Assembly: GCA_001004905.1 (NCBI GenBank)
Contig: LCRY01000002.1
Location: 199,251-263,250 of the forward strand
Origin: Parcubacteria group bacterium GW2011_GWA1_56_13
GTDB lineage: Bacteria > Patescibacteriota > Minisyncoccia > Phycocordibacterales > Phycocordibacteraceae
Direction: 5' to 3'
DNA length: 64,000 bases
Shown: in pieces, positions 11,863-44,599 of the stretch
Layout of the letters: each line of letters opens with the position of its first letter
How positions within the stretch are numbered: the first letter of the stretch is position 1
Notes under the pieces: model-generated
The model's database searches: none
What the model was told of the DNA's origin: nothing
Seen by the model: the letters and a program-made list of their open reading frames with translations, nothing else
Translations under genes and position numbers: made by a program

Positions 11863-12414
11863 TTAACCTCTCTTGTTTTCCAGCCACGCGAGCATCGTAC
11901 CCGCGTCCGATACTTCAAGCGGGTCGTCGGGACAGTCATCGGAAAGTCCCGGTTCGATGAACAGCTTTTGTATGGTGCCGTCCTCGACCAGCATCGAATA
12001 GCGCCAGCTTCTGTCGCCGAAGCCGAGATTTTCTTTCTTGACCAGCATCCCCATGCCGCGTGTGAACGCGGCGTTGCCGTCCGGAAGCATTTTCACGTTC
12101 TGTACGCCGAGCTTGTCCGCCCACTGCTTCATCACGAACGCGTCATTGACCGAGAGACAGTACACTTCGTCAACACCTAACTCTTTGAACGTATCGTAAT
12201 TCGCTTCGTAACCCGGCAAGTGCGTTGACGTGCAGACGGGTGTGAAAGCGCCGGGAAGCCCCAGCACGACGACTTTTTTGCCGCTGAAAATTTCCTTGGA
12301 GGAGACGTCCTGCCAGCGGTAAGGATTATCGCCGCCTACGGATTCATCGCGGACCCGCATCTTGAACGCGACATCCGGCACCGAAGACCCTTCTGTGAGG
12401 GGTTGTTGAGCCAT
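11863..12414 (-). CDS. peroxiredoxin, Prx5-like (AhpC/TSA family)
   Basis: PGAFTPVCT with a peroxidatic Cys; KVVVLGLPGAFTP. Confidence 0.85.
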   Translation of the reverse strand: MAQQPLTEGSSVPDVAFKMRVRDESVGGDNPYRWQDVSSKEIFSGKKVVVLGLPGAFTPVCTSTHLPGYEANYDTFKELGVDEVYCLSVNDAFVMKQWADKLGVQNVKMLPDGNAAFTRGMGMLVKKENLGFGDRSWRYSMLVEDGTIQKLFIEPGLSDDCPDDPLEVSDAGTMLAWLENKRG

Positions 12415-12441: not shown

Positions 12442-13809
12442 CTACGGACGGCTCGCGGCGCGTGGACCGGCGTACTCCATTTCCCGTTTTCCTTCGGGAA
12501 TAACCCGCTCGATGATGAATTCGTCGCCTCGGAAGGATGCCTTCACTACCTTCATGCGTTTTCCATGTTCGAAAAAATACGTGCCTATGGTGTCGGCATA
12601 CGCACGGTATTTATTCCAATTCTCCTTCGCGGGAGCATCAAGCGAGAGGAGCCCGTCTTCCTTCCGTATCTTATACGCGCGAATGGCACGCGAAGCGTCT
12701 TGCGGAATTGGAACGATCTTGTCTTCCAGGTACGCGGGAATCGTGTGGACAAGCAGATCCGCGCCGATAGAAATAAGCCGTGGGCGCAGTTCTCGGGCGG
12801 TTTCGCCGTTCTCTACAGCGGTCTTCTCTTGCGCCAGAATATCGCCGGCGTCGAGTTCTTTCGTCATTTTCTGGATCGTGACCCCGGTACCCGCGTCGCC
12901 GGAGAGAAGCGCGGTCTCAAGCGGCGTGGCGCCGCGGTATTTCGGCAGAAGGGAATAATGGACGTTCAACACGCCTTTGGGGAATGCGTTGATGAGTGTT
13001 TCGGGGAAAATCTTTCCGTATGCGACGCAGACGGCATACTCGCATCCGAGCCCGGCGATCGCCGCGACGGTTTCGGCGTCCAGTTTTTCCGGCGTTATGA
13101 CCGGGATGCCGTATGCAAGGGCAAGTTTTTTCGTTTCCGAAGGAGTGAGCGTAAGTCCGCGGCCTCTTGGCGCGTCGGGAGAGGTGATGATAAGCGACGG
13201 TATGAAGCCGCGTTCAATGAGGATCGCAAGCGTGTCCCCCGCGACTTTCGGCGTGCCGAAAAATACGAACGGATGAAGCGACCCTTCCGGAATGCGGATG
13301 AGGCGTTCGGCATGGTCGGTGAAGAGGATCCCGTTCAGGTGGTCTATCTCGTGCTCGAATATCTGCGCTAATAGGCCGCCCGCGCCTCGTTTCAGGGTCG
13401 AGCCGTCGGGATTCTGCGCCTGTATGGTGACGCGCTCGTGCCGTTTAGTCGTTCCGTAGACTCCGTGGACCGAGAGACACCCTTCATCGGCTTCCGCGCG
13501 CTTGCGGGACGTCTTTACTATTTTCGGGTTGATATACACCTCGATGGTAGGTGGCGGGGGAGGCGACGGCGTGGCGCCTTTTTTGGTCGGAGCCGGAGGA
13601 GGCAGTGTGCGGTCCTTGCGCACGATAAAGAGGCGGTACGAAACGCCCACCTGCGGTGCGGCAAGCGCAACGCCTTCAGGAAACCGGTCGAGTGCCTCGG
13701 CCATGTCGCGTATGAGACGCTCAAGCTCGGGGGAGCCGAAGAGCTCCTCCGGCACCGGGCGCGCGATCTCGCGCAGTACCGGCGCCCCATCTTGCGTGAT
13801 TTCTTTCAT
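12442..13809 (-). CDS. bifunctional peptide deformylase / methionyl-tRNA formyltransferase fusion (Def-Fmt)
   Basis: N-terminal about 190 aa carry the Def motifs (GVALAAPQVG, EGCLS, HEIDHLNG). The C-terminal part carries Fmt motifs (FFGTP, HYSLLPKYRG). One uninterrupted ORF of 455 aa. Confidence 0.8.
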   Translation of the reverse strand: MKEITQDGAPVLREIARPVPEELFGSPELERLIRDMAEALDRFPEGVALAAPQVGVSYRLFIVRKDRTLPPPAPTKKGATPSPPPPPTIEVYINPKIVKTSRKRAEADEGCLSVHGVYGTTKRHERVTIQAQNPDGSTLKRGAGGLLAQIFEHEIDHLNGILFTDHAERLIRIPEGSLHPFVFFGTPKVAGDTLAILIERGFIPSLIITSPDAPRGRGLTLTPSETKKLALAYGIPVITPEKLDAETVAAIAGLGCEYAVCVAYGKIFPETLINAFPKGVLNVHYSLLPKYRGATPLETALLSGDAGTGVTIQKMTKELDAGDILAQEKTAVENGETARELRPRLISIGADLLVHTIPAYLEDKIVPIPQDASRAIRAYKIRKEDGLLSLDAPAKENWNKYRAYADTIGTYFFEHGKRMKVVKASFRGDEFIIERVIPEGKREMEYAGPRAASRP

Positions 13810-13871
13810 GTGCTCCAGTGTATCATCTCCTCTAGCGCCGTGGTATTCTGATGCTCATTAAATCTTTTCAT

Positions 13872-14543
13872 ATGCGGACCGCACTTATTACCGGCGTCAG
13901 CAAAGGAATCGGAAAAGCGGAGGCCCAAAAGCTCCTTGCGGAAGGGTTCCATGTTTTCGGAACATCAACAACCGGAAAAATTGATTACGCCCATAAAAAT
14001 CTGCAAATCATTCCATTGGACCTGAAATCATCGGAGAGCATCGCCGCTTGCGCATCTGCCATCGCTAAGACAAAGACCATGTTCAATGTTGTCATCAATA
14101 ACGCGGGGGTGCTACTGGACGATGAAGATACGGTGCTCATTCCTGAAAAACTGAGAGCAACGCTCGAAGTGAATCTCATCGGGACGGCCGAATTCACCGA
14201 ACGCGTTTTGTCCTCCGTAAAAAAGGAGGGAATTATCGTTATGACATCTTCGACGGCCGGCTCCTTACAGCTTGCCGAAACGGCCGATCATTACCCGCTC
14301 CACTATCCCGCGTACAAGATCTCAAAGGCCGCTTTAAACATGTACATGCGGACCTTGGCCCGCAGATTGCGCGACACCGGCCCCATCGTTCTTTCCGTGC
14401 ATCCAGGATGGGTAAAGACCGACATGGGTGGGGAAGAGGCCGACACCACGCCAGAAGAGGCCGCGGAGGATATCTACCACACCATCGTTTCCCGACCCAA
14501 AAACGGCGTTTTCCTATTCCGTGGTCGGCACATTCCTTGGTAA
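13872..14543 (+). CDS. SDR-family oxidoreductase
   Basis: TGxxxGIG Rossmann motif and the YKISK catalytic dyad. Confidence 0.8.
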   Translation: MRTALITGVSKGIGKAEAQKLLAEGFHVFGTSTTGKIDYAHKNLQIIPLDLKSSESIAACASAIAKTKTMFNVVINNAGVLLDDEDTVLIPEKLRATLEVNLIGTAEFTERVLSSVKKEGIIVMTSSTAGSLQLAETADHYPLHYPAYKISKAALNMYMRTLARRLRDTGPIVLSVHPGWVKTDMGGEEADTTPEEAAEDIYHTIVSRPKNGVFLFRGRHIPW

Positions 14544-14837
14544 TTATCGCGTCTCGTGCTTCGTCGGATCAAGTTCCCACCAGAATTTTTTACTGAAACT
14601 CTTCGCCTGGCTGCAAACGCTTTTCAAGTAATACAGGTCCTGTGTCGGTATTTTTTCGAGCACGGTACCGAGATGGGCCATGGTCATGGGAGCGAGCCCG
14701 TCCTGCTTGCGTGCATAGTTCAGATGGCGCAGGAAGAAGCGCATCAGTTCGCCACGCTCGGTCTGGCGTTTTCTTCCTTTGGGCGCTTCCGCCGCTTTCT
14801 TTTCGAAATCCGGAAGGATATCACTGATGGCTCTCAT
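14544..14837 (-). CDS. hypothetical protein (98 aa); start ATG overlaps the murA stop (ATGA)
   Basis: ORF with translational-coupling geometry downstream of murA. Confidence 0.45.
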   Translation of the reverse strand: MRAISDILPDFEKKAAEAPKGRKRQTERGELMRFFLRHLNYARKQDGLAPMTMAHLGTVLEKIPTQDLYYLKSVCSQAKSFSKKFWWELDPTKHETR

Positions 14838-16147
14838 GACGCTTCGATAGAGGCGCCGAGCTTTCGCAGGCGCGGGACGAGATTTTCGTAGCCGCGGTTG
14901 ATGGTGTAGACATTCCGCAGCATGGAACGGCCCTTTGCCGCGAGCATCGCGATGACGAGAATGGCGCCGATGCGCAGTACGGGCGGGCAAATTATCTCGG
15001 CCGCCTTGAGGTGCGACGGCCCCGTTATCGAGATGCGGTGCGGGTCATGCAGCAAGGTGGTCGCGCCGAGCCGGTCGAGTTCCGTGTAGTAAATGGCGCG
15101 CTTGTCATACACCCAGTCGTGGAGCATGGTAGTACCTTTCGCCTGTGTGGCGATAACGGCGAAAAAAGGAAGGTTATCCATGTTCAATCCGGGATAGGGG
15201 CGAGGATGGATCGGTTCGGGGAACGCGACGAGTTCGGAAGGCTTGATAGCGATGTCCGCGAGGCGCGTAATGCCGTTCTCTGAGGTTCCCGTTTCGGCGA
15301 TGGAGAACTGCAGACCCATTTTTTCAAGAACGATGAGCTCTATTTCAAGAAAGGCGATGGGCGCGCGGCGCACCGTGACGGCGGAGTGCGTCGCGGCCGC
15401 GGCGGCGATGAAGAACATGCTGTCGATCGGGTCTTCGGCCACGCTGTAAGAAACGTCTTTGGCGATGTCGGCCAGTCCGGTAATGGTCAGCGTCGTGCTC
15501 CCGACACCGTCTATCTTCACGCCAAGGGCTTTGAGGAATCCGCACAGCTCCTGCACTTGATAATTCGCCGAGGCATATTTGATGACGCTCGTGCCGGGAA
15601 TGCGAGATGCCGCAAGCAGGGCGTTTTCGGTAGCCGTATCGCTTGATTCATACAGGATTATCTCGGCGGGCCGGAGCCCTGAATGCTTGATGGAAAAGCG
15701 GTCCTTCAGCGCCTCGATCTCCACGCCGAATTTCTCCAGCGCGAAAAGATGCGGGCGTACGGTCCGCGTTCCGAGCGTGCAGCCGCCTGACTGCGGGATC
15801 TCGAACGAGCGCGCATGATGCAGCAGCGGGCCGATGAAGAGCAGGATGCTGCGGGTCCGGGTCGCCGCGTCGCGGTCGATTGACCCCAGGGAGAGCTTTC
15901 CGGGCACCTCGATGACGACGCTCGTACCGCGCCACTCGACCGAGACGCCGATGGAACGAAGCACTTCGATGAGGCGGTTCACTTCCTCGATTTTTGGCAC
16001 GTGGTCGAACGTCGTGCGGCCCTTATTGAGAAGGGAAGAAGCGAGGAGCGCGACAACCCCGTTCTTGGACCGGCTTGTCTCGACTGATCCCGAAAGCTCG
16101 CGACCCCCCTCGACGAAAAAGTTAACTCCTTCCTCCATACGGGCCAT
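14834..16147 (-). CDS. murA: UDP-N-acetylglucosamine 1-carboxyvinyltransferase
   Basis: Full-length similarity to MurA (...GGCTLG..., ...RGYENLVPRLRKLGA); start at ATG 16147. Confidence 0.9.
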   Translation of the reverse strand: MARMEEGVNFFVEGGRELSGSVETSRSKNGVVALLASSLLNKGRTTFDHVPKIEEVNRLIEVLRSIGVSVEWRGTSVVIEVPGKLSLGSIDRDAATRTRSILLFIGPLLHHARSFEIPQSGGCTLGTRTVRPHLFALEKFGVEIEALKDRFSIKHSGLRPAEIILYESSDTATENALLAASRIPGTSVIKYASANYQVQELCGFLKALGVKIDGVGSTTLTITGLADIAKDVSYSVAEDPIDSMFFIAAAAATHSAVTVRRAPIAFLEIELIVLEKMGLQFSIAETGTSENGITRLADIAIKPSELVAFPEPIHPRPYPGLNMDNLPFFAVIATQAKGTTMLHDWVYDKRAIYYTELDRLGATTLLHDPHRISITGPSHLKAAEIICPPVLRIGAILVIAMLAAKGRSMLRNVYTINRGYENLVPRLRKLGASIEAS

Positions 16148-16184
16148 CGTACCATCTTTGCGCGGGAGCGCCGAGCGAGATATT

Positions 16185-17219
16185 ATGGGAGCGATGACTT
16201 TCTTTTCTCCGAAACTGGGCATAGACCTCGGAACCACGAATATCCTCGTATTCGTTCCCGGCAAAGGCGTCATCATTAATGAGCCCTCGGTCGTTGCCGT
16301 CGGCAAAGCGCACGGCAAGAAGGGGGGCAACAAGATACTCGCCATCGGCGCGGAGGCGAAACAGATGATAGGCCGCACGCCCGACGACATTATCGCGTAC
16401 CGTCCGATGAAAGACGGCGTCATCGCTGACTACCGCATCACCGAGGCGATGCTCCGCTATTTCATAAAGAAAGCACTCGGCCATAATCCGTTCAAGCCGA
16501 CCGTGCTCATTTCGGTTCCCGCGGGCGTCACTTCGACCGAAAAGCGCGCCGTCATCGAGGCGGCGCTCAAGGCCGGCGCGAAGAATGCGTACGTGGTGAA
16601 AGAGCCGATACTCGCGGCTATCGGCGCGGGCATTCCCATCCACGAACCCATGGGGCGCATGGTCGCGGACATCGGAGGCGGGACCATAGACGTCGCCGTA
16701 ATATCGCTCGGCGGCATCGTCGCCTCGACGAGCGTGAAATGCGCGGGCGATCGGCTCGACCGCGCCATCATTGACCATGTGAAAAAACAGCACAATCTCT
16801 CCATCGGCGAAAAGACCGCGGAGGAATTGAAGATAAAAGTCGGAGCCGCAATACCGATGAACGAAGAACTCTCCATGGCAGTCAAAGGACGCGACCTCAT
16901 GAGCGGCCTGCCGCGCACCGTTGATATCTCCACGAACGACCTTGTGCAGGCCATGGCTCGTGAACTGCGCGAAATGACGCAGGCGGTGCGCAAGGTGCTC
17001 CAGGACACGCCGCCAGAACTTGCCGCCGACATCATCGATAACGGCATCATCCTTACCGGCGGCTCCTCCCAGCTCCGTCAGATGCCAGAGCTTGTGTATC
17101 GCCGCACGGGCGTCGTCGCAAAGCTCGGACAGGACCCTTATTTCTGCGTCGCGCGCGGCACCGGCGTCGCGCTCAAGCATTTGGATACGTACCAGAAAAG
17201 CATCTTGGCGAAGCAGTGA
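16185..17219 (+). CDS. mreB: rod shape-determining protein MreB (paralog 1)
   Basis: Actin-fold motifs GIDLGTTN, DIGGGTTD, ILTGGSS. Confidence 0.9.
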   Translation: MGAMTFFSPKLGIDLGTTNILVFVPGKGVIINEPSVVAVGKAHGKKGGNKILAIGAEAKQMIGRTPDDIIAYRPMKDGVIADYRITEAMLRYFIKKALGHNPFKPTVLISVPAGVTSTEKRAVIEAALKAGAKNAYVVKEPILAAIGAGIPIHEPMGRMVADIGGGTIDVAVISLGGIVASTSVKCAGDRLDRAIIDHVKKQHNLSIGEKTAEELKIKVGAAIPMNEELSMAVKGRDLMSGLPRTVDISTNDLVQAMARELREMTQAVRKVLQDTPPELAADIIDNGIILTGGSSQLRQMPELVYRRTGVVAKLGQDPYFCVARGTGVALKHLDTYQKSILAKQ

Positions 17220-25717: not shown

Positions 25718-27283
25718 ATGCTGTGGGCAGATCGGATAGCCGGCGAGATCCGGGATACGCACACGCCGCGGGACGGTAAGACATTCCTCATCCGCGATGA
25801 GAAGACCCTTTCCGGCCGCGTGCACGTTGGGAGTATGCGCGGGGTCGCCGTTCATGGCATCATCGCGGAAATTCTGGGCGAGTACGGCATACCGAATGAA
25901 TACCGCTATGAACTGAACGATTTCGACCCGTTCGATTCGGTGCCCAGCTATCTTGACGCGGACATATTCCGGGAACACCTTGGGAAGCCGCTATACGCCG
26001 TCCCAAGTCCTGAACCGGGATTCGCGAACTACGCCGAATATTTCGGCGCCGAGTTCGCAGCCGTGCATAAAAACGCCGGCTTCGCACCGACATATTATCG
26101 CGCAACCGAGTACTACCGCTCGGGAAAGATGGATGCACTTGTGAAGATCGCGCTCGAGCGCGCGGCAGACGTCCGTCGGATACTAAAAGAGGTGTCCGGG
26201 TCCGAGAAAGACGAGTCGTGGCTTCCGGTTTCCGTCGTATGCGAGAACTGCGGAAAGATGATGACCACGCGCGCATACGAATACGACGGCGAGACAGTCG
26301 GTTATTCCTGCGATGGGAATCCGGACGGGGTGCAAAGCTGCGGACATACGGGGCGCGTCGCACCGTGGAAGGGTGCCGCAAAGCTTTTTTGGAAGGTTGA
26401 TTGGGCGGCGAAATGGATCGCAGTCGGCGTAGACGTCGAAGGCGGCGGCAAGGATCATTCGACGAAAGGCGGTTCACGCGACGTTGCCAATCACATCTGC
26501 CGGGAAGTGTTCGGTCAGGAACCGCCGTTCGACATACCGTATGAATTTTTTCTCGTGGGCGGAAAAAAAATGTCCTCCTCGAAAGGCCGCGGTTCGAGCG
26601 CGAAAGATATAAGCGACCTCTTCCCGCCGCAGATTTTCCGTCTCGCTCTCATCGGCAAGGATATCCGCGAGCAGGTCGATGTAGATCCGGCAGGAGAATC
26701 GGTCCCGCGGCTCTATGACTGGTACGACGAACTCGGGAATGGTGTGCGGGAAGGGAAGGCGGATGATTACTCGCGGCTCTTTGCCCTGTGCGAGCTCCCG
26801 GAGAATCGCGCGGCGCTTTCGGCTCCATGGCAGATGCGGTTCAGGGAAGTCGCGTTCATCGTGCAAATGCCCCATCTCTCGCTCATTGAAGAGGCCGCCA
26901 AAGTAAAAGGAAGCGTTCTTTCCGAAGACGAGTGGACCGCGCTCGATGAGCGCGCGCGATATGCGAAGTACTGGCTCACGACGTATGCACCGGAAGAATT
27001 TAAATACGAATTACAGGAAGAAATGCCCGACGTCGCCTTGTCGGATGCGCAGAAAAAAGCGCTTACCTCGCTTGCCGGATATTTAGAAGTCGAGCGTACG
27101 GGCGAAGAACTCCATGCCCGCCTGCACGAGATGAAAACCGAAGTGCCGATAGCGCCCAAAGACCTATTTCAGGCCTTGTACCGGATTTTCCTGAACCGTG
27201 ATTCGGGCCCGAAGGCCGGATGGTTTCTCGCCGGTCTTTCTCGCGATTTTGTCGTTGCGCGCTTGCACGAGGCGGCTTTGTAA
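25718..27283 (+). CDS. lysK: lysine--tRNA ligase, class I (archaeal/spirochaete-type LysK)
   Basis: N-terminal WADxIA...SGxVHVG (HIGH-like) and KMSSSKG (KMSKS). The C-terminal ...LYRIFL...GPKAGWFLAGL matches class I LysRS end to end. Confidence 0.85.
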   Translation: MLWADRIAGEIRDTHTPRDGKTFLIRDEKTLSGRVHVGSMRGVAVHGIIAEILGEYGIPNEYRYELNDFDPFDSVPSYLDADIFREHLGKPLYAVPSPEPGFANYAEYFGAEFAAVHKNAGFAPTYYRATEYYRSGKMDALVKIALERAADVRRILKEVSGSEKDESWLPVSVVCENCGKMMTTRAYEYDGETVGYSCDGNPDGVQSCGHTGRVAPWKGAAKLFWKVDWAAKWIAVGVDVEGGGKDHSTKGGSRDVANHICREVFGQEPPFDIPYEFFLVGGKKMSSSKGRGSSAKDISDLFPPQIFRLALIGKDIREQVDVDPAGESVPRLYDWYDELGNGVREGKADDYSRLFALCELPENRAALSAPWQMRFREVAFIVQMPHLSLIEEAAKVKGSVLSEDEWTALDERARYAKYWLTTYAPEEFKYELQEEMPDVALSDAQKKALTSLAGYLEVERTGEELHARLHEMKTEVPIAPKDLFQALYRIFLNRDSGPKAGWFLAGLSRDFVVARLHEAAL

Positions 27284-37342: not shown

Positions 37343-40300
37343 ATGAAATCAAACCTCTACAAAAAAGATCTGATCACGACACGATTTGCCGGTAAACTTT
37401 CCGGGTACACTTCGAGTTATTTGAGGCGCCTTGCACGGTCCGGCGAAATAGAGGGTGTCCAGGTCGGCCGGGTGTGGATGATCAAGCGCAGTTCGCTCGT
37501 CCGCTTTCTTGATGTACAAGCAAAGCGCAAGGAAGAGCTATCACACGTTCGCTCTCAAGTTCGCGCCGCTGAATATCACTCGCACCGTCCGCCGTTGCGC
37601 AGGCCTGCAAAAACGATCACGAAACCACTCTCGGCATCGTACTTCGGCACCAAAAAAGAGGCGATTATTTTTGCGTCAATTCTGACGTTCATCGTCATCT
37701 CTTTCGGAACTGTCGCGCTGCAAGGGGCCAGTATCGTTCCGGCTGTCATCACTGCAGGGAAGCAAACGGCAGCCGTTGTTGGCATGCAGTCCGTCTCAGG
37801 CATCGGCGAAAAACTCGCTCTTGCTACGTACGAAACCGTTCAAAGTTTTTTTGATTCTGCACAACGCGCGCTCGCGTCGCTTTTCAAGCCGTCGTCCACC
37901 CTGGTCGTGCTCCCAAGTCCGCCGCCCACCGTCATCGCCTCGAACCCGCCTCCTGTGCATTCGGCTTTCACAACGATTGTCGCCACGACGACCCGGCCTT
38001 CATATACCACCATCGTCCAGGGCATATCTTCCGCCTTCCTCGACCAGTCGCTCTCCACGCTGCGCGCCGACATCATCGCCACCGTCGTTGGCATGGTGAA
38101 TCCGGTGGCCGCACAGGTGAATCCCATCTACCATTACTCCGAAGCAGACTCCTTTGACGGCGGTGCCGTGGGCAACGCCGTCACCGCCCCTTCTTTCTCG
38201 GCAAGCGATGCTGAGGGCATGAACTCCCTCGCCCTTCTTACCGCTGGCACCACCACTCTCACCAATCTCGCGGTCACGAACACGAGCACGAGCACGTTCG
38301 CGGGTCCTCTTTCCGTTGCTGGCGTCCTCACCGTCACCGGAACCACCACCGCTGCCGGATTCATATCGACAGACCTCGGCTCCGCCGAACGCCCCGCCTT
38401 CGCCTTCCTCGCCGACCTCGCCACCGGCCTGTTCTCTCCCACCGCCTCCACCCTCGCCCTGTCAAGCGGCGGCACCGAGCGCCTGCGCATCGACGCCGAC
38501 GGCAACGTGGGCATCGGCACCACCTCCCCCGACGCCCTCCTCTCGCTCCAGCAAGTCACCAACGGCACGCCCTTCTTGAGTGCGTACCGCGTGACCGACA
38601 CGGTCCCCTCCGGCGACTTCATCTCATACAAGCAGAACGACGGCACCACGCTCTTCCGCGTGGACAACTCGGGCAACCTCCTTGCCGGCGGCATCATCAA
38701 CTCCGGCAGCCAGACCATTACGTCCGTTTCGACGCCGCAATTCAGAGTCCAGTATGACCCCACCAACGAGATTACCCTCTCGGTGAACTCCCTGGGCACC
38801 ACCACCATCGGACTAAACGGCACCGCCCCCGGCCTCACCTTCACCCCCCAGTCGAATCTCGTGAACCAGTTCAACTTCACCGACAAGGACAGCAGTTCCG
38901 TGCTCTCCATCGATACCGTGAACAAGCGGGTGGGGGTGGGGACGACGAGTCCATATGCGAAGTTGAGCGTGGTGGGGCCGATAATTGCTGAATACTTTCA
39001 TGCAACCTCGTCTGTTGCTACCTCCACCTTTTCAGGAAAGGTCGGCGTCGGAACCGCGAATCCCGCAAGGAAGGTGCATATAGTAGATGGCACCTCATAT
39101 GGCTTTGGTTTCGGCGAACAACTGCGCGTTGATGGTTCGAATACGGTTGGAGCCAACATCGGTTTCTATACGTCGCTTGGAGGTGATAGGAGAAATTGGT
39201 TGATCGGCACCGACGTGGCTACTGTGGGGGATTTCGGTTTCGTAAGATCGGCAAGCCCCGGGACGGAACCACTGTCTTCCTTAGTGTCTTTGGTCATCAA
39301 CAACGCCGGCAACGTCGGCATCGGGACGACGAGCCCGTGGGCGCAACTTAGCGTGAACCCGAACGGCATCACCGGCCCCGCCTTCGCCATCGGCTCCTCG
39401 ACCAAGACCGATTTCGTGGTGACGAATGGGGGGAAGGTGGGGGTGGGGACGGCGGCGCCCGCCTATCCGCTCCATATCACAGGCACATCAGACACAGGCC
39501 ATCTCGCCGTAGAAGCATCGGGCGGCATCGCCCAAATCCAGCTTCTTGGCAACGCCGGCTCGGCGGACGACATTAATTTCGGCATTTCGGGCGGCACGTT
39601 CGCCAATGCCCCGGGTAAAATCCGCTATAACAACGGCTCTTCAGGCCTCATGCAGTTCTATACCAATAGCGAGGCACGCCTCAACATTACCAACACCGGC
39701 AACGTCGGCATTGGGACGACGACACCTCAATCAAAATTATCGGTTGTGGCGAGTGAAGCGACTAATGCGGCCATATCACTTTCTGCAGACGATGGGGACG
39801 ACATCTCGGACACGTGGTTTTTAAACTCCATTGCTAGTGGCAATACCCTCACCTTTACTAACAGCGGTAATACAGCATTTTCATTGAGTGGTTTTGGCGC
39901 CTTATCATTACCCCAAACAACTGCACAAGTGACTCTGTATAGCTCTTCTGACTCAACGGGGCTGGATTTGGATGTTAGAGCTTCATCTTTACCGACAGCA
40001 TCATACATATACACAGCCGATGGGAGTGGGGGTTCCTATCCGTTTACTACATGGGGTAATTTACTTCTTGGCCCGGCAAGCGGAGCGGATATTGTTCTCG
40101 GCAGGGACAGCGAGGTGGTAATCAAAGACGGCGGCAACGTCGGCATTGGGACGACGAGCCCCGGACACAAACTCTCCGTCGCCGGCTCCGCCTATTTCGA
40201 TGGTGGCACCATTACGGCCTCCGGTTTCACCGCGACTTCGAGCATTTCCGCTCCATACTTCACCACGACCGATGCAACCGCTACTTCCACTTTCGCAGGA

Positions 40301-43300
40301 TTCATAGACGTGAACGGCACCGGTTCGAACGCCACGTCGACCTTCGCCTCGAACCTTTGGGTGAAAGGGACGCTCCGCACGGGTACTGGTTCCATATACT
40401 TGAATGACACTGGCCTCACCGCGTCAGACGGAAATATCGCCCTCACTCGAAACGGCGTCTCACATATAAACGGCGGCAACGTCGGCATAGGCACCACGAC
40501 GCCGGTCGGGAAGCTCACCGTAGCGTCGAGCGGCGGCGTCAATACCGGGCTTACTTTGGACATAAGCTCCGCTTCAAGCTACGTTCCCATCGATTTCAGG
40601 TCCCAATCGACCCTGGGGGCACAGATCGCGATGACGGGCTCCTCTTTTTCGAGCGGCTCTTCCGGCGCGAACGAGCTGTTCGTTGCGAACGAACTGACTT
40701 CAGGAACGTTGCACCTTGCCTCGATCGGGTCGAGCGGAATAGTCAAATTCACTACCGGCGGAAATACCACTGCGAACGAAAGGATGCGCATCACGAGCGA
40801 TGGCAACGTCGGCATCGGCACGACGAATCCGACGGCAGGACACTTAGTGGTTGGTGACGGAACGACTTCAAGCAATCAAGCAATAGTAATGAACTCTCCC
40901 GCTGCGAATTGGGCGGGGATAGTCACACAGAAAGCTGGGACGGAGAAGTGGTTTATAGGGATGGGAGACACCGCAACTTACGGTGATAAGTTGTTATTAA
41001 GACGCACAGCTTCGTCCAACGACATGGTAATTGATACCTCCGGCAACGTCGGCATCGGGACGGCGAGTCCAGGGAGCAAGCTTCATGCATATGATAGTTC
41101 CACCGCTTCCAATCGAGTTGCCCAGTTTACGAATGCGGTAGACGCTAATGGAGAATTCAGCTACATCGGGATTGGCAGGGAAAGCGGTGAGCAAGCGTAT
41201 GTCGGCCATACTTATAATTCGACGGACGGAAACAGATATGCGTGGCTCGGCGTATCAGGCGACGGAATCACAGAGAACGGCACAGGTCTTATAGTCAAAA
41301 AAGGCGGCAACGTCGGCATCGGGACGGCGACGCCCAATGGAAAATTGGCAATCACCCCAAGTTCAGTTGGGACTCGAAAAATTGTGTTGTTTGAAGGTGC
41401 GAATAATGATTATCAGTTTTATGGATTCGGCGTTGAAGGCAGCACATTAGTATATACCACATATACAACAAGCGATGACCACGTATTCTTTGCAGGAACG
41501 TCTGCAACCTCACGGAACGAGTTAATGAGAATAAAAGGCACCGGCAACGTCGGCATCGGGACGGCCAATCCTGGATACAAACTGGATGTCAGTGGCTCTT
41601 TGAATGCTACTTCTCTGTACGAAAATGGGATCCAAGTGAGTTACCCCATACCTTTAGCGCCGGGTGCTAATAATTGTAGTGCTCAATGGGTGAATCTTGG
41701 TACTTTGACAATCGGTCAGGGAGGGCAGAGTGCCTTCATTAAGATGGTATCGAATGCGGGATACAACGCGAGTATAAGTCAAAACTTCGAAGCTTACATC
41801 AGATTCAAAACTAGTAACGGGGGTAGCGTTGACAGTAATGGATTCGCCGGTGATTCTTCGTTTTACACGACGGGAAGATCGCTGTTAAATGGTTCCAGTG
41901 CGGTGAAATGGGTGGCGAATGCGAGTGGTGTTAGTGCTACTTCGTACACTCTCTACGTTAACTTCGCCTCGTGTTTCGGAGTTGGCAGTTTTTATACTGT
42001 AGAAACTTCGGGTGGGTCTTGGGTAGATGTTAGTGCTGGGTCACAATCAGATCCGGGGAGCGGAAGCGCCACGGTTCTCATAGCGACGAATGAATTCAAT
42101 GTCGGCGGAAGTAGTTTGGTTGTCAATTCTTCTAGCAACGTCGGCATCGGTACGGCGGACCCTGGGGCAAAACTTGAAGTATTCGATTCTACGCCCACGA
42201 GCGCCCAGGCAGTAAATTCGAAAGCGAAGATGCTCGTCAATACGAATGGAAATGCGTTTCTAGAATTCCGATCGACTGCGGATAATAACAGCTATCAGGG
42301 ACTTCTCTTTGCCGACAACAATCAAGGAGGTTATGTGGCATTCAACAACGCCGGTGGCGGCGATGATTATTTGCATCTCGGCGGGTACACGGGCGTCAAG
42401 CTTGAGTACGGCTCACAGGATTCAACTACCGACATAGCTCTCAAAACGCTCGGAATGACGCTGAATAGTACGGGAGCGACTTTCGCCGGCGCCGTCGCTG
42501 TGACTGGAGCGCTTTCCCACAATGGCAGTACCGTCTGGGACGCCGGCAATGACGGTGCCAGCAGTGGTCTCGACGCGGACTTACTCGACGGCATAAGCTC
42601 CGCAACCTTTGCACGCCTTGATAGCGCTGCTAGTTTTTCAAGCACGCTCTATGCCGCGGGAAAGATAACGAGCGGCGTCAATGGTGCCGCCTACTTCTGT
42701 GGCGGTGACGATGCCTGTCTCTATGACGTGAACGTTGCCAATGTCGTCGGTATTGTCGGCGCTACAACCGATCGCGGCTATGTACAGTTTGGCAACGGTT
42801 CAAGCGCTATTTTAGGAGCAGTGAACGGAGGAGCTCTCACTTATAATGGCAACACCGTTTGGCATTCAGGAAATGACGGTGCCAGTTCCGGCCTAGACGC
42901 GGACTTACTCGACGGCGTGAGCAGCGGTTCGTTCGCGCGCGTCGATGCCGCCACTAATTTCACCACTGCGCCGACCATTAGCGGAAATACGGTATGGCAC
43001 GCCGGCAACCTCACCAACCTTAACCAGCTCACCAACGGCCCCGGCTACATCACCGACGGCAATAGCGGCTGGGATAACGTTTATGGATACATCACCGACG
43101 GCAATAGCGGCTGGGATAACGCTTATGGCTACATCACCGACGGCAATAGCGGCTGGGATAACGCTTATGGCTACATCACCGGTTCGAACCCAACATTTTC
43201 TAGCCTCAGTATGTTTAGTGGATATAGCGTCTGCATGACCGCACAAACAGGAGGGAATCTTGGTTGGTGCGATCCATCAGACGTGCGTTTGAAGAAGGAG

Positions 43301-44599
43301 ATAGTTCCCCTTCCGACGGCTGCAACAATCGAGAAGCTTCGGGGACTTAACCCGGTTTCATTCAAATGGATCGATGAGGCCGTTAGCACCAGCACCCAGA
43401 TCGGCTTGATTGCCCAAGAAACGATGGAATTTTTCCCTGAATTGATATTATCCGGCAACGGTCCTTATTATGGAGTTAATTACTCAAGACTGGTTTCACC
43501 GCTTATCGTAGGATTCCAGGTGCTTGATAGTCGGACTATCGACATTTCTTCCGACGGTAACGGCAACGTCGGCATCGCTTCGACTTCGCCTTCGGCTACG
43601 CTTAGTGTAAACGGCACCGGCTATTTCACAGACAACCTTACCGTAACCAGTGATGTGCGCGCCACGGGCTTCGTGAACACCTCGACGAGGACGCTCAAGA
43701 CGAACGTCAGTTATCTCTCCGCAAGCTCCTCGCAGCGGATGCTCGCCGAACTCCTCGACCTTAAGGCCGCCACCTACCGCTACATAAGCGACTCGCCTGT
43801 TCTAGGCGGAGCCGAAGGTCTCCGCCTCGGCCTCATCGCCGAAGACGTCGCGGCCATTGCCCCCGAGCTCCTCTCTCTGGACGGGAAGGGAATAGACCTC
43901 TACAAACTCGCCACCTTTACGCTCGCCGGCGTACAGGCACTCGCGATACGCATCGAAGGGCAGGAGACACGCCTCACCTCGCTTGAAGCGCGCGTTGCCG
44001 CTCTCGAGAGTGGGGCGGTGAGCACGGCGAGCGGGACGATGTTGACCGCGTCCTCTACGCAACAATGGATAACGAGCTGGTTCGCGAGCGCACAGAACGG
44101 GATAGGCGACCTGCTCGCAAAGACATTCCGTGCAAGCGAGAAGATATGTGTTGACGACCAATGTCTGACCAAGGATGACGTACATACCTTGCTCCAGATG
44201 GTGAGAGCCCAGGCCACGTCAACGGCCCCAACCAGCACGACTTCGGGTGGGGAAATATCCATAATCACGACCGCATCCTCAACACCGACGGCCGACGCAG
44301 CGACGGCCAGTTCGACCGCGCTTATTACCGCAGACACGGCGGATACGACCGCCACGAGCACGCCAGCGGATACGGCAACAACTACTACACCGATAGAGAT
44401 AACCGACACCCCGCCGACGACGGATACCGCGACAGACAGTACCGTGGTAATCACTGACGTTTTGCCAACGACAGATACAGCGGTCTCCACTGATCAAACA
44501 ACGGCCACATTGGAAACTTCCAGCGAAGTTCCAACGGAGCAGGCCACCGATAGCTCAACCGCGCCTGCAACCGACACCACCACAACAACCTCTCCTTAA
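37343..44599 (+). CDS. giant surface protein (2418 aa): N-terminal excisionase-type HTH, one TM helix, tail-fibre-like GNVGIGTTSP repeats, two S74-type intramolecular chaperone domains, Thr/Ala/Pro-rich C-terminal tail
   Basis: Single uninterrupted ORF with the domain features read from the translation. Confidence 0.85.
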   Translation: MKSNLYKKDLITTRFAGKLSGYTSSYLRRLARSGEIEGVQVGRVWMIKRSSLVRFLDVQAKRKEELSHVRSQVRAAEYHSHRPPLRRPAKTITKPLSASYFGTKKEAIIFASILTFIVISFGTVALQGASIVPAVITAGKQTAAVVGMQSVSGIGEKLALATYETVQSFFDSAQRALASLFKPSSTLVVLPSPPPTVIASNPPPVHSAFTTIVATTTRPSYTTIVQGISSAFLDQSLSTLRADIIATVVGMVNPVAAQVNPIYHYSEADSFDGGAVGNAVTAPSFSASDAEGMNSLALLTAGTTTLTNLAVTNTSTSTFAGPLSVAGVLTVTGTTTAAGFISTDLGSAERPAFAFLADLATGLFSPTASTLALSSGGTERLRIDADGNVGIGTTSPDALLSLQQVTNGTPFLSAYRVTDTVPSGDFISYKQNDGTTLFRVDNSGNLLAGGIINSGSQTITSVSTPQFRVQYDPTNEITLSVNSLGTTTIGLNGTAPGLTFTPQSNLVNQFNFTDKDSSSVLSIDTVNKRVGVGTTSPYAKLSVVGPIIAEYFHATSSVATSTFSGKVGVGTANPARKVHIVDGTSYGFGFGEQLRVDGSNTVGANIGFYTSLGGDRRNWLIGTDVATVGDFGFVRSASPGTEPLSSLVSLVINNAGNVGIGTTSPWAQLSVNPNGITGPAFAIGSSTKTDFVVTNGGKVGVGTAAPAYPLHITGTSDTGHLAVEASGGIAQIQLLGNAGSADDINFGISGGTFANAPGKIRYNNGSSGLMQFYTNSEARLNITNTGNVGIGTTTPQSKLSVVASEATNAAISLSADDGDDISDTWFLNSIASGNTLTFTNSGNTAFSLSGFGALSLPQTTAQVTLYSSSDSTGLDLDVRASSLPTASYIYTADGSGGSYPFTTWGNLLLGPASGADIVLGRDSEVVIKDGGNVGIGTTSPGHKLSVAGSAYFDGGTITASGFTATSSISAPYFTTTDATATSTFAGFIDVNGTGSNATSTFASNLWVKGTLRTGTGSIYLNDTGLTASDGNIALTRNGVSHINGGNVGIGTTTPVGKLTVASSGGVNTGLTLDISSASSYVPIDFRSQSTLGAQIAMTGSSFSSGSSGANELFVANELTSGTLHLASIGSSGIVKFTTGGNTTANERMRITSDGNVGIGTTNPTAGHLVVGDGTTSSNQAIVMNSPAANWAGIVTQKAGTEKWFIGMGDTATYGDKLLLRRTASSNDMVIDTSGNVGIGTASPGSKLHAYDSSTASNRVAQFTNAVDANGEFSYIGIGRESGEQAYVGHTYNSTDGNRYAWLGVSGDGITENGTGLIVKKGGNVGIGTATPNGKLAITPSSVGTRKIVLFEGANNDYQFYGFGVEGSTLVYTTYTTSDDHVFFAGTSATSRNELMRIKGTGNVGIGTANPGYKLDVSGSLNATSLYENGIQVSYPIPLAPGANNCSAQWVNLGTLTIGQGGQSAFIKMVSNAGYNASISQNFEAYIRFKTSNGGSVDSNGFAGDSSFYTTGRSLLNGSSAVKWVANASGVSATSYTLYVNFASCFGVGSFYTVETSGGSWVDVSAGSQSDPGSGSATVLIATNEFNVGGSSLVVNSSSNVGIGTADPGAKLEVFDSTPTSAQAVNSKAKMLVNTNGNAFLEFRSTADNNSYQGLLFADNNQGGYVAFNNAGGGDDYLHLGGYTGVKLEYGSQDSTTDIALKTLGMTLNSTGATFAGAVAVTGALSHNGSTVWDAGNDGASSGLDADLLDGISSATFARLDSAASFSSTLYAAGKITSGVNGAAYFCGGDDACLYDVNVANVVGIVGATTDRGYVQFGNGSSAILGAVNGGALTYNGNTVWHSGNDGASSGLDADLLDGVSSGSFARVDAATNFTTAPTISGNTVWHAGNLTNLNQLTNGPGYITDGNSGWDNVYGYITDGNSGWDNAYGYITDGNSGWDNAYGYITGSNPTFSSLSMFSGYSVCMTAQTGGNLGWCDPSDVRLKKEIVPLPTAATIEKLRGLNPVSFKWIDEAVSTSTQIGLIAQETMEFFPELILSGNGPYYGVNYSRLVSPLIVGFQVLDSRTIDISSDGNGNVGIASTSPSATLSVNGTGYFTDNLTVTSDVRATGFVNTSTRTLKTNVSYLSASSSQRMLAELLDLKAATYRYISDSPVLGGAEGLRLGLIAEDVAAIAPELLSLDGKGIDLYKLATFTLAGVQALAIRIEGQETRLTSLEARVAALESGAVSTASGTMLTASSTQQWITSWFASAQNGIGDLLAKTFRASEKICVDDQCLTKDDVHTLLQMVRAQATSTAPTSTTSGGEISIITTASSTPTADAATASSTALITADTADTTATSTPADTATTTTPIEITDTPPTTDTATDSTVVITDVLPTTDTAVSTDQTTATLETSSEVPTEQATDSSTAPATDTTTTTSP
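43043..43198 (+). repeat. three and a half tandem copies of a 48-bp unit encoding GYITDGNSGWDNAY inside the giant gene
   Basis: Near-identical tandem units read directly. Confidence 0.85.

What the first reader, a model, noticed from the sequence alone, without database searches (positions are those of the whole stretch)
12442..13809. Peptide deformylase and Met-tRNA formyltransferase fused into one 455-aa protein
def and fmt are normally adjacent but separate genes. Here a single uninterrupted ORF carries the three Def metal-binding motifs (GxGxAAxQ, EGCLS, HEIDHLNG) in residues 1 to about 190. It continues straight into an Fmt catalytic domain (FFGTP...HYSLLPKYRG) with a shortened C-terminal tRNA-binding region. 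A physical fusion of the two enzymes that process initiator Met is a notable piece of genome streamlining.
Basis: partly seen in the sequence, partly recalled or inferred. Interest (0 to 1): 0.6.

Follow-up and report, generated by a model that had tools for sequence, protein, structure and literature searches.

The report
Real deformylase–formyltransferase gene fusion
In this Kaiserbacteria (CPR) genome the two enzymes that add and later remove the formyl group on the starting methionine are truly joined in one protein, most likely after a one-base deletion in the short overlap between two formerly separate genes; the same kind of fusion recurs in many bacteria and was already shown to work in Exiguobacterium, so it is a tidy evolutionary example rather than a surprise.

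Summary
Window 12442-13809 (-) is one uninterrupted 455-codon ORF. It has a peptide deformylase domain (res 1-169), a 15-residue linker, an Fmt catalytic domain (181-356) and a half-length Fmt C-terminal domain (380-448).

It is not an assembly error. The gene is nucleotide-identical in five other assemblies. 23 of 80 species-level relatives carry the same in-frame fusion, and all 120 closest database homologs are fused with every catalytic motif kept.

The other 57 relatives (44-72% id) have separate genes. In most of them def and fmt overlap by 17 nt, with fmt in the +1 frame. The fused forms are exactly one base shorter (84 vs 85 nt) between two conserved His codons. That points to a single-base deletion inside the overlap. 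It saves one nucleotide, so it is not "streamlining".

The short Fmt C-domain and the Gly-to-Ala change in Def motif I also occur in the split relatives, so they are lineage traits unrelated to the fusion.

Def-Fmt fusions recur elsewhere (Berkelbacteria, other Patescibacteria, Bacillota). One from Exiguobacterium was published in 2025 and complemented E. coli Δdef-fmt.

Verdict: a new member of a known kind, of modest interest.

The parts
12442..13809 (-). Complete def-fmt fusion ORF (455 codons plus TAG stop)
   Evidence: ORF list and sequence. The gene is nucleotide-identical in 5 other assemblies.
13813..13816 (-). GGAG, a possible Shine-Dalgarno element 3 nt upstream of the ATG (weak, inferred)
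   Evidence: Read directly from the sequence. Function not tested.
13303..13809 (-). Peptide deformylase domain, residues 1-169
   Evidence: PF01327 E=3.9e-42. TIGR00079 108 bits vs cut-off 103.95; NF001159 133.2 vs 125. PDB Def hits down to E=5.5e-27.
13651..13674 (-). Def motif I, GVALAAPQ (res 46-53). The second Gly of the canonical motif is Ala.
   Evidence: The same Ala is present in 120/120 close homologs and in both fused and split relatives.
13549..13605 (-). Pro-rich insertion in Def, variable in length among relatives (res 69-87, LPPPAPTKKGATPSPPPPP)
   Evidence: Variable, gapped columns in alignment A1. Low model confidence there. Appears as a 20-residue gap against a Bacillota fused homolog.
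13471..13485 (-). Def motif II, EGCLS (res 109-113; Cys111 is the metal ligand)
   Evidence: Retained in 120/120 close and 112/112 diverse fused homologs.
13339..13353 (-). Def motif III, HEIDH (res 153-157; two His ligands and the catalytic Glu)
   Evidence: Retained in 120/120 and 112/112 homologs.
13270..13314 (-). Linker, res 166-180 (HAERLIRIPEGSLHP). Positions 13270-13287 (res 175-180) are the remnant of the ancestral 17-nt def/fmt overlap in which one base was lost. There is no in-frame ATG/GTG/TTG here.
   Evidence: Junction comparison of 80 loci. Model pLDDT below 50 across the linker. Longest homopolymer nearby is T5.
12742..13269 (-). Fmt N-terminal catalytic (formyltransferase) domain, res 181-356, starting with FVFFGTP
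   Evidence: PF00551 E=1.1e-33. TIGR00460 covers res 182-426. PDB Fmt hits E=2e-43 to 1.5e-33. Foldseek TM about 0.8 to 4iqf/1fmt/2fmt.
13156..13179 (-). Fmt loop 1, PDAPRGRG (res 211-218). R217 aligns with E. coli Fmt Arg42.
   Evidence: HMMER alignment to 1fmt_A. R217 and G218 are invariant in A1 (whose numbering is offset by -1).
12931..12966 (-). Fmt catalytic motif NVHYSLLPKYRG (res 282-293). N282 and H284 align with E. coli Asn108 and His110.
   Evidence: alignment. Motif retained in 120/120 homologs.
12844..12855 (-). Fmt LDAG (res 319-322). D320 aligns with E. coli Asp146.
   Evidence: alignment. Retained in 119/120 homologs.
12466..12672 (-). Half-length Fmt C-terminal domain, res 380-448. 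K380 and K383 align with E. coli Lys206 and Lys209. It ends with VIPEGKREM.
   Evidence: PF02911 matches only profile positions 1-49 of 100. The E. coli alignment ends at chain residue 251 of 314. The model shows one helix and three strands at pLDDT 80-88. The same short form is seen in stand-alone CPR Fmt.

Best explanation
This is a genuine bifunctional Def-Fmt polypeptide.

The C-terminal Fmt part (Asn282/His284/Asp320 centre, Arg217 loop) would formylate Met-tRNAfMet from 10-formyl-tetrahydrofolate. The N-terminal Def part (Cys111, His153, His157, Glu154, Gln53) would remove the formyl group from nascent chains. No new chemistry is involved, and no intermediate passes between the two sites, because fMet-tRNA is not a Def substrate.

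The fusion most likely arose within Kaiserbacteria from the usual def-fmt pair. In sister species those genes overlap by 17 nt: the fmt ATG lies inside a def His codon, and the def TAA overlaps the fmt His-Lys codons. Loss of one base between those two His codons put def in frame with fmt. That skipped the def stop and made the fmt start redundant; it has since decayed.

The result is obligatory 1:1 co-synthesis in place of translational coupling. The change is probably near-neutral and easily reached.

Shown here: the ORF, the domains, motif retention, the split and fused junctions, and recurrence of the fusion. Inferred: both activities, the direction of change (split to fused), and near-neutrality.
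For: Architecture and scores.

Not an artefact:
- The exact protein is carried on 14 contigs, and the gene is nucleotide-identical in the 5 places fetched, which come from NCBI, JGI and Logan assemblies.
- All 120 closest homologs (69-83% id, 439-477 aa) carry Def and Fmt domains.
- Motifs I-III and the Fmt N-x-H...RG motif are retained in 120/120; the Asp motif in 119/120.

Origin:
- Of 80 species-level loci, 23 are in frame and 57 are split.
- The modal HExxH-to-FxYFGTP distance is 84 nt in fused forms and 85 nt in split forms.
- Split junctions read ...C-ATG-CCG-CAA-CCG-CAT-AAG-TTT with def ending GCA-TAA. Fused forms read H-x-x-x-H-x-F, one base shorter.
- 50 of 54 split loci keep an fmt ATG, and the overlap is 17 nt in 36 of them. 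Only 2 of 24 fused forms have an in-frame ATG in the linker, and the window has none.
- CATG and TAA are near-invariant in split forms only.
- The fused state is phylogenetically clustered: 7 Fitch changes against 19.9 for permuted labels, minimum 14.

Functional precedent: an Exiguobacterium Def-Fmt fusion rescued E. coli Δdef-fmt (PMC12690207).
Against: - No biochemical or expression data exist for this protein.
- Def motif I has Ala where more than 95% of single-copy PDFs have Gly (PMC12690207). The whole clade shares this, split forms included.
- The Fmt equivalog model scores just below its cut-off (198.2 vs 201.5 bits) because half of the C-domain is missing.
- The single-protein NJ tree does not recover the fused set as one clade (0/100 bootstraps). 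The number of fusion events, and hence the polarity, is inferred rather than shown.
- Only 64 kb of the genome could be searched for a second def or fmt. None was found there.
Confidence: 0.85

Rival explanations
1. Assembly or sequencing artefact: two overlapping genes were joined by a spurious 1-nt deletion in this assembly.
For: Fused and split forms differ by a single base at the junction. This is the size of a typical indel error.
Against: - The gene sequence is identical in five other assemblies made by different pipelines.
- 23 other species-level genomes and all 120 closest homologs are fused in frame. Their linkers differ at the amino-acid level but keep the frame.
- The fmt start codon has decayed in fused forms.
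- There is no long homopolymer at the deletion site.
Confidence: 0.02
2. The ORF is fused but only one half is active. For example, the Def half could be a degenerate domain and a second stand-alone def elsewhere in the genome would do the work, as Exiguobacterium also has a second PDF.
For: - Motif I has Ala at the position of the highly conserved second Gly.
- Exiguobacterium genomes with the fusion also carry a second PDF.
- Only 14% of the 455,725-bp contig (the longest known to carry this protein) lies in the window.
Against: - The metal ligands and catalytic Glu/Gln are conserved in 120/120 homologs.
- The Gly-to-Ala change is equally present in relatives where def is a separate gene, so it predates the fusion.
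- Def curated cut-offs are passed.
- No second def or fmt lies in the window.
Confidence: 0.07
3. The fused ORF still gives two separate proteins, through internal initiation or proteolytic cleavage in the linker.
For: The linker is predicted to be flexible (pLDDT below 50). A few fused relatives have an in-frame start codon in the linker (4 of 24).
Against: - The window's linker has no ATG/GTG/TTG.
- The next possible starts would remove the essential FFGTP strand.
- No protease site is evident.
- The Exiguobacterium fusion works as one ORF, although its processing was not examined.
Confidence: 0.05
4. The fusion is adaptive: it physically couples the two steps. It might hold Fmt at the ribosome through Def, or replace the missing C-terminal ribosome-docking helix of Def, and is kept by selection rather than by accident.
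For: - Fusions of the same order (Def then Fmt) recur in several lineages.
- The Def tail is short here. The alignment to E. coli Def ends at chain residue 148 of 168, and only 11 residues precede Fmt.
- The fusion has persisted across at least 23 species.
Against: - Closely related species do well with split genes (57 of 80).
- The short Def tail and the short Fmt C-domain are also present in split relatives.
- The Def-then-Fmt order simply mirrors the operon order.
- No intermediate is shared between the two reactions (established biochemistry).
- The model gives no confident inter-domain contact (pTM 0.54).
Confidence: 0.1

Closest known systems
Def-Fmt fusion of Exiguobacterium (E. alkaliphilum), Mol Biol Evol 2025, PMC12690207
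   Same: A single ORF with Def at the N-terminus and Fmt at the C-terminus. That fusion was shown to complement E. coli Δdef-fmt, which shows that a Def domain carrying Fmt on its C-terminus can work.
   Different: - Different phylum (Bacillota vs Patescibacteria).
- The Exiguobacterium sequence itself was not available here.
- Bacillota fused homologs in the database are only 33% identical, have a full-length Fmt C-domain (PF02911 positions 1-99 of 100) and lack the Pro-rich Def insertion.
- The nearest relatives of the window protein are split-gene species, so the origin is independent.
- Exiguobacterium also has a second PDF. Whether this genome does is unknown.
Overlapping def/fmt gene pair of sister Kaiserbacteria/Paceibacterota species (e.g. 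loci L058, L056, L073)
   Same: 64-72% identical over both halves. They share the short Def tail, the motif-I Ala, the half-length Fmt C-domain and the murA ... def fmt ... hpf-DUF167 neighbourhood.
   Different: They are two genes overlapping by 17 nt in different frames, with a conserved fmt ATG and def TAA. The window has one base fewer and a single frame.
Canonical def-fmt operon of E. coli (Meinnel & Blanquet 1993; Mazel et al. 1994; cited in PMC12690207)
   Same: The same two enzymes in the same gene order. The catalytic residues align: Fmt Asn108/His110/Asp146/Arg42/Lys206/Lys209 correspond to N282/H284/D320/R217/K380/K383. Def motifs II and III are intact.
   Different: - Separate proteins in E. 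coli.
- E. coli Def has about 20 more C-terminal residues. From general knowledge, these form the ribosome-binding helix.
- E. coli Fmt has about 33 more residues in the distal C-domain.
Other multidomain formyltransferases (ArnA; the 10-formyl-THF dehydrogenase hydrolase domain)
   Same: They share the Fmt-like N- plus C-domain fold, joined to another enzyme.
   Different: They have different partners and substrates. The scores are far below those families' cut-offs (ArnA NF005998: 116 vs 777 bits), so the window protein is not a member.

Membership tests
Peptide deformylase (PF01327 / TIGR00079) | Profile score above the curated cut-off | tested here: met
   PF01327 143.9 vs 22.8 bits. TIGR00079 108 vs 103.95; NF001159 133.2 vs 125.
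Peptide deformylase (PF01327 / TIGR00079) | Motif II EGCLS (Cys ligand) and motif III HExxH (two His ligands, catalytic Glu) | tested here: met
   EGCLS at 109-113 and HEIDH at 153-157. Conserved in 120/120 homologs.
Peptide deformylase (PF01327 / TIGR00079) | Motif I GΦGΦAAxQ, or the updated ΦGΦAAxQ of PMC12690207 | tested here: not met
   The sequence is GVALAAPQ. The Gln and both Ala are present, but the second Gly is Ala. This holds clade-wide, in split relatives too. The paper notes that exact motif conservation is not required for activity.
Peptide deformylase (PF01327 / TIGR00079) | Deformylase activity | not testable with these tools
   Needs an enzyme assay or complementation.
Methionyl-tRNA formyltransferase (TIGR00460; PF00551 + PF02911) | Equivalog model score above the cut-off | tested here: not met
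   198.2 vs 201.5 bits, a marginal miss. The match covers profile positions 4-250 of 315. The shortfall is due to the truncated C-domain.
Methionyl-tRNA formyltransferase (TIGR00460; PF00551 + PF02911) | N-terminal formyltransferase domain with the Asn/His/Asp catalytic residues | tested here: met
   PF00551 E=1.1e-33. N282, H284 and D320 align with E. coli N108, H110 and D146.
Methionyl-tRNA formyltransferase (TIGR00460; PF00551 + PF02911) | Fmt-specific loop 1 with the Arg42 equivalent (initiator-tRNA recognition) | tested here: met
   PDAPRGRG at 211-218, with R217 aligned to R42. This is a sequence-level result only.
Methionyl-tRNA formyltransferase (TIGR00460; PF00551 + PF02911) | Complete C-terminal tRNA-binding domain (PF02911) | tested here: not met
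   Only profile positions 1-49 of 100 are matched, and the region is about 33 residues shorter than in E. coli. Stand-alone CPR Fmt proteins have the same short form.
Methionyl-tRNA formyltransferase (TIGR00460; PF00551 + PF02911) | Best match is Fmt rather than a paralogous formyltransferase (ArnA, PurN, PurU) | tested here: met
   Fmt E=1.7e-58, against ArnA 1.4e-33, PurN 9.6e-17 and PurU 4.7e-12. The six best PDB hits are all Fmt.
Def-Fmt fusion proteins (as described for Exiguobacterium) | One ORF, Def N-terminal and Fmt C-terminal, with no stop or frameshift | tested here: met
Def-Fmt fusion proteins (as described for Exiguobacterium) | Common descent with the published fusion | tested here: inconclusive
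   The Exiguobacterium sequence was not obtainable. Indirect evidence points to an independent origin: the nearest relatives are split, and Bacillota fused homologs are 33% identical with a full C-domain.
Def-Fmt fusion proteins (as described for Exiguobacterium) | Both activities shown in vivo | not testable with these tools
   This was shown only for the Exiguobacterium protein.

The most novel reading that the evidence does not exclude
The fusion is not a neutral accident. It would be part of a CPR-specific way of handling the initiator methionine. In this reading, Fmt has lost the distal half of its tRNA-binding domain across Patescibacteria, and Def has lost its long C-terminal helix. In several lineages the two are covalently joined, so that Fmt is recruited to the ribosome (or Def to the initiator-tRNA pool). 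That would imply an altered mode of initiator-tRNA recognition and co-translational deformylation in these reduced-genome bacteria.
Probability: 0.1. Interest if true: 0.55.

Novelty: new member of a known kind. Interest (0 to 1): 0.3.

Why it matters
It gives a clean, dated-by-relatives example of how overlapping, translationally coupled genes become one gene through a single-base deletion. Fused and unfused states still coexist in sister species.

It extends the recently published Def-Fmt fusion from one Bacillales genus to many candidate-phyla-radiation lineages.

For annotation, these proteins are currently labelled only 'methionyl-tRNA formyltransferase', 'peptide deformylase' or 'hypothetical'. 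They should be called bifunctional.

The CPR-wide half-length Fmt C-domain may deserve a look by people who study initiator-tRNA recognition.

None of this overturns current understanding.

Tried and rejected
- **Monophyly of the fused set.** A Kimura-distance NJ tree with 100 bootstraps did not recover it (0/100). Only clustering could be shown. No ML tool or genome-wide markers were available.
- **Names for diverged fused representatives.** The listing of cluster members returned none. The profile search gave them instead.
- **Exiguobacterium sequence.** I looked for it in the paper's supplements. Only the figure legend and a strain table are held there.
- **Literature on a CPR/Patescibacteria Def-Fmt fusion.** Nothing was found in the searchable library.
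- **Relaxed constraint in the former overlap.** Mean nucleotide entropy is no different overall (1.06 vs 1.03). Only the start and stop codon positions differ.
- **Functional link to the downstream peroxiredoxin.** Rejected, because it neighbours def/fmt in only 6 of 80 loci, and the upstream SDR in 2 of 80.
- **Programmed frameshifting in the split relatives.** Rejected as unnecessary. There is a conserved fmt ATG (50/54) and a conserved def TAA, and no slippery motif was seen by eye in the junction alignment.
- **Second def or fmt in the window.** None found by tblastn.
- **Inter-domain geometry from the AlphaFold model.** Not interpretable (pTM 0.54, linker pLDDT below 50, shallow alignment).

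Full report
**Observation**

Window 12442-13809 (minus strand) is a single ORF of 455 codons, from ATG at 13807-13809 to TAG at 12442-12444. The profile searches give three matches:
- PF01327 (peptide deformylase) on residues 1-169, E=3.9e-42.
- PF00551 (formyltransferase N-domain), E=1.1e-33.
- A partial PF02911 (formyltransferase C-domain) on residues 380-428, matching only profile positions 1-49 of 100.

NCBIfam names the two halves as Def (TIGR00079 108 vs 103.95 bits; NF001159 133.2 vs 125) and Fmt (TIGR00460 198.2 bits, just under its 201.5 cut-off, covering profile 4-250 of 315). The best solved-structure relatives are six Fmt proteins for residues 181-427 and many Def proteins for residues 2-175. 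A Foldseek search with the AlphaFold model returns Fmt structures with TM about 0.8.

- Motif I is GVALAAPQ, with Ala in place of the second Gly.
- The Def domain ends near residue 169.
- The linker (residues 166-180) lies at 13270-13314.

A numbering caveat applies. Alignment A1 and the structure model lack Met1, so their numbering is one less than the true protein numbering used in this report.

**Catalytic equipment**

Def keeps EGCLS (109-113) and HEIDH (153-157), plus the Gln of motif I. In a HMMER alignment to E. coli Fmt (1FMT/2FMT), the following residues correspond:
- N282, H284 and D320 align with Asn108, His110 and Asp146.
- R217 in the PDAPRGRG loop aligns with Arg42.
- K380 and K383 align with Lys206 and Lys209.

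That alignment ends at E. coli residue 251 of 314, with 30 query residues left. So about 33 residues of the distal C-domain are absent. The model shows a compact helix plus three strands there, at pLDDT 80-88. The alignment to E. coli Def ends at chain residue 148 of 168, and only 11 residues separate that point from the first Fmt strand.

**Is it an assembly error?**

No. The exact protein is on 14 contigs. In five loci fetched from NCBI (two assemblies), JGI (two metagenomes) and Logan, the 1368-nt gene is identical to the window. All 120 best hits in the 5.8-billion-protein collection (69-83% identity, 439-477 aa) carry both Def and Fmt Pfam domains. The source names include Kaiserbacteria, Paceibacterota and Parcubacteria. 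All 120 keep Def motifs I-III and the Fmt N-x-H...RG motif, and 119 keep the Asp motif. The linker varies in sequence among them but stays in frame.

**What the relatives show**

A scan of one genome per GTDB species found 298 genomes with a relative. I examined the best 80 loci.
- 23 loci (L001-L022 and L024) have both domains in one frame, and 57 do not.
- In about 50 loci, fmt lies in the +1 frame relative to def.
- The distance from HExxH to FxYFGTP is typically 85 nt in the split forms and 84 nt in the fused forms.

At the nucleotide level, split forms read ...CAC-C**ATG**-CCG-CAA-CCG-CAT-AAG-TTT. In the def frame this is CAT-GCC-GCA-ACC-GCA-**TAA**. So the fmt ATG sits inside a def His codon, and the def stop overlaps the fmt His-Lys codons. 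Fused forms read H-x-x-x-H-x-F, exactly one base shorter between those two His codons.

Of 54 split loci analysed, 50 have an fmt ATG, and the overlap is 17 nt in 36 of them. Of 24 fused genes (including the window's), only 2 have an in-frame ATG in the linker, and the window has no start codon of any kind there. CATG and TAA are near-invariant in split forms and free to vary in fused ones.

The simplest reading is a one-base deletion inside the 17-nt overlap. The remnant lies at window 13270-13287 (residues 175-180). In the window E175 occupies the position of the former def His, and H179 is the former fmt His.

The direction of change, split to fused, is an inference. It rests on three points: the bacterial norm of separate genes; the fact that a deletion needs nothing else, whereas the reverse needs a start and a stop to appear together; and the outgroups L025 and L033 being split.

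**How many fusion events?**

On an NJ tree of the concatenated Def and Fmt sequences with the linker excluded, the fused state is strongly clustered. It takes 7 Fitch changes, against 19.9 on average (minimum 14) for permuted labels. A BLOSUM-distance tree places the 84-nt fused forms together. A Kimura-distance tree and its bootstraps do not recover them as one clade, so a single protein cannot settle this.

L020 (108-nt spacing, nested among split species) and L021 (90 nt, 57% identity) look like separate events.

More widely, 46 of the top 150 representatives of 50%-identity clusters are fused, all in Def-then-Fmt order, at 29-48% identity to each half. The top 120 hits of a profile built from them are all fused. 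Their source names include Berkelbacteria, Paceibacterota, Patescibacteria, Firmicutes/Bacillota and Thermaerobacter. Fusion of this gene pair is therefore recurrent.

**Traits that are not due to the fusion**

- The half-length PF02911 match also appears in stand-alone Fmt of split relatives (L058, L025, P0121) and in Berkelbacteria fusions. Bacillota fusions have the full domain.
- From FxYFGTP to the stop, Fmt is 266-281 residues in split and fused forms alike.
- The motif-I Ala is present in 51 of 54 split and 23 of 24 fused loci.
- The short Def tail is the same in split genes.

**Streamlining?**

The two-gene arrangement already overlaps, and the fusion shortens the locus by a single nucleotide. 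Streamlining is not a useful description.

**Context**

The neighbourhood murA ... def-fmt ... hpf-like/DUF167 is conserved (68, 69 and 61 of 80 loci). The downstream peroxiredoxin and the upstream divergent SDR are particular to a few lineages (6 and 2 of 80). No second def or fmt lies in the 64-kb window.

**Comparison with what is known**

The only report of a def-fmt fusion in the searchable literature is Mol Biol Evol 2025 (PMC12690207). It covers four Exiguobacterium reference genomes. The fused gene rescued E. coli Δdef-fmt, and those genomes also have a second PDF. Searches that combined deformylase or formyltransferase with CPR or Patescibacteria terms found nothing relevant.

A Bacillota fused homolog is 33% identical to the window protein. 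It has a full C-domain and lacks the Pro-rich Def insertion. Because the window protein's closest relatives are split-gene species, its fusion is independent of the Bacillota ones.

**Mechanism and verdict**

The protein most likely carries out both canonical reactions from one chain. The fusion replaces translational coupling by covalent 1:1 synthesis. There is no substrate channelling to gain, because fMet-tRNA is not a Def substrate (established biochemistry).

The Exiguobacterium result shows that Fmt hanging from the C-terminus of Def is compatible with Def function. An adaptive role, such as ribosome tethering, cannot be excluded. No evidence supports it, and thriving split sister species argue against it.

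This is a real, well-supported fusion and a new (CPR) member of a known kind. It has an unusually clear origin and is of modest interest.

Noticed in passing
L025:2944-4443 and L033:2953-4275: In these more distant Patescibacteria (44-48% id), def and fmt are in the same frame, separated only by one stop codon followed directly by the fmt ATG (...EAK*MKYVFFGTP). A single substitution in the stop would also create a fusion. This is a second easy route to the same architecture.
   Followed up: partly
window 12466-12672; also L058:3473-4345, P0121, P0329, P0286: Patescibacteria Fmt proteins, whether fused or stand-alone, match only the first half of the Pfam C-terminal (tRNA-binding) domain and total about 270-290 aa. 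Bacillota fused proteins have the full domain. This looks like a lineage-wide truncation. I found no description of it in the searchable literature.
   Followed up: partly
window 13651-13674: Def motif I is G-V-A-L/I-A-A-P-Q in all 120 close homologs and in nearly all split relatives. The Ala replaces a Gly reported as conserved in more than 95% of single-copy PDFs.
   Followed up: partly
window 13549-13605: A proline-rich insertion in the Def domain (res 69-87) varies in length and sequence among relatives and has low model confidence. It is absent from a Bacillota fused homolog.
   Followed up: partly
window 37343-44599 (+): A giant 2418-aa ORF whose only Pfam hit is Peptidase_S74, the intramolecular chaperone of endosialidase / tail-fibre type, near residues 1979-2035 (two stretches). 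It may be a very large surface or fibre-like protein.
   Followed up: no
window 25718-27283 (+): A class I lysyl-tRNA synthetase (PF01921, E=1.3e-82). As far as I know, most bacteria use the class II enzyme instead.
   Followed up: no
window 11863-12414 (-) and 13851-14543 (+): A peroxiredoxin lies directly downstream of def-fmt and an SDR lies divergently upstream. These occur next to def/fmt in only 6 and 2 of 80 related loci, whereas murA, the hpf-like gene and DUF167 are conserved neighbours. They look like lineage-specific insertions.
   Followed up: yes
window 14834-16423 (-) and 15834-17219 (+): The mechanical ORFs for MurA (529 aa) and MreB (461 aa) overlap head to head because of long N-terminal extensions. 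Gene calls in other assemblies give 437/480 aa and 341/344 aa, so the extensions are ORF-listing artefacts.
   Followed up: partly
L035 and L064 (JAKAJJ010000022.1, JAKAJJ010000004.1): One MAG (WY3.bin89) contributes two different split def/fmt loci (69% and 65% id to the query). This suggests a mixed bin.
   Followed up: no
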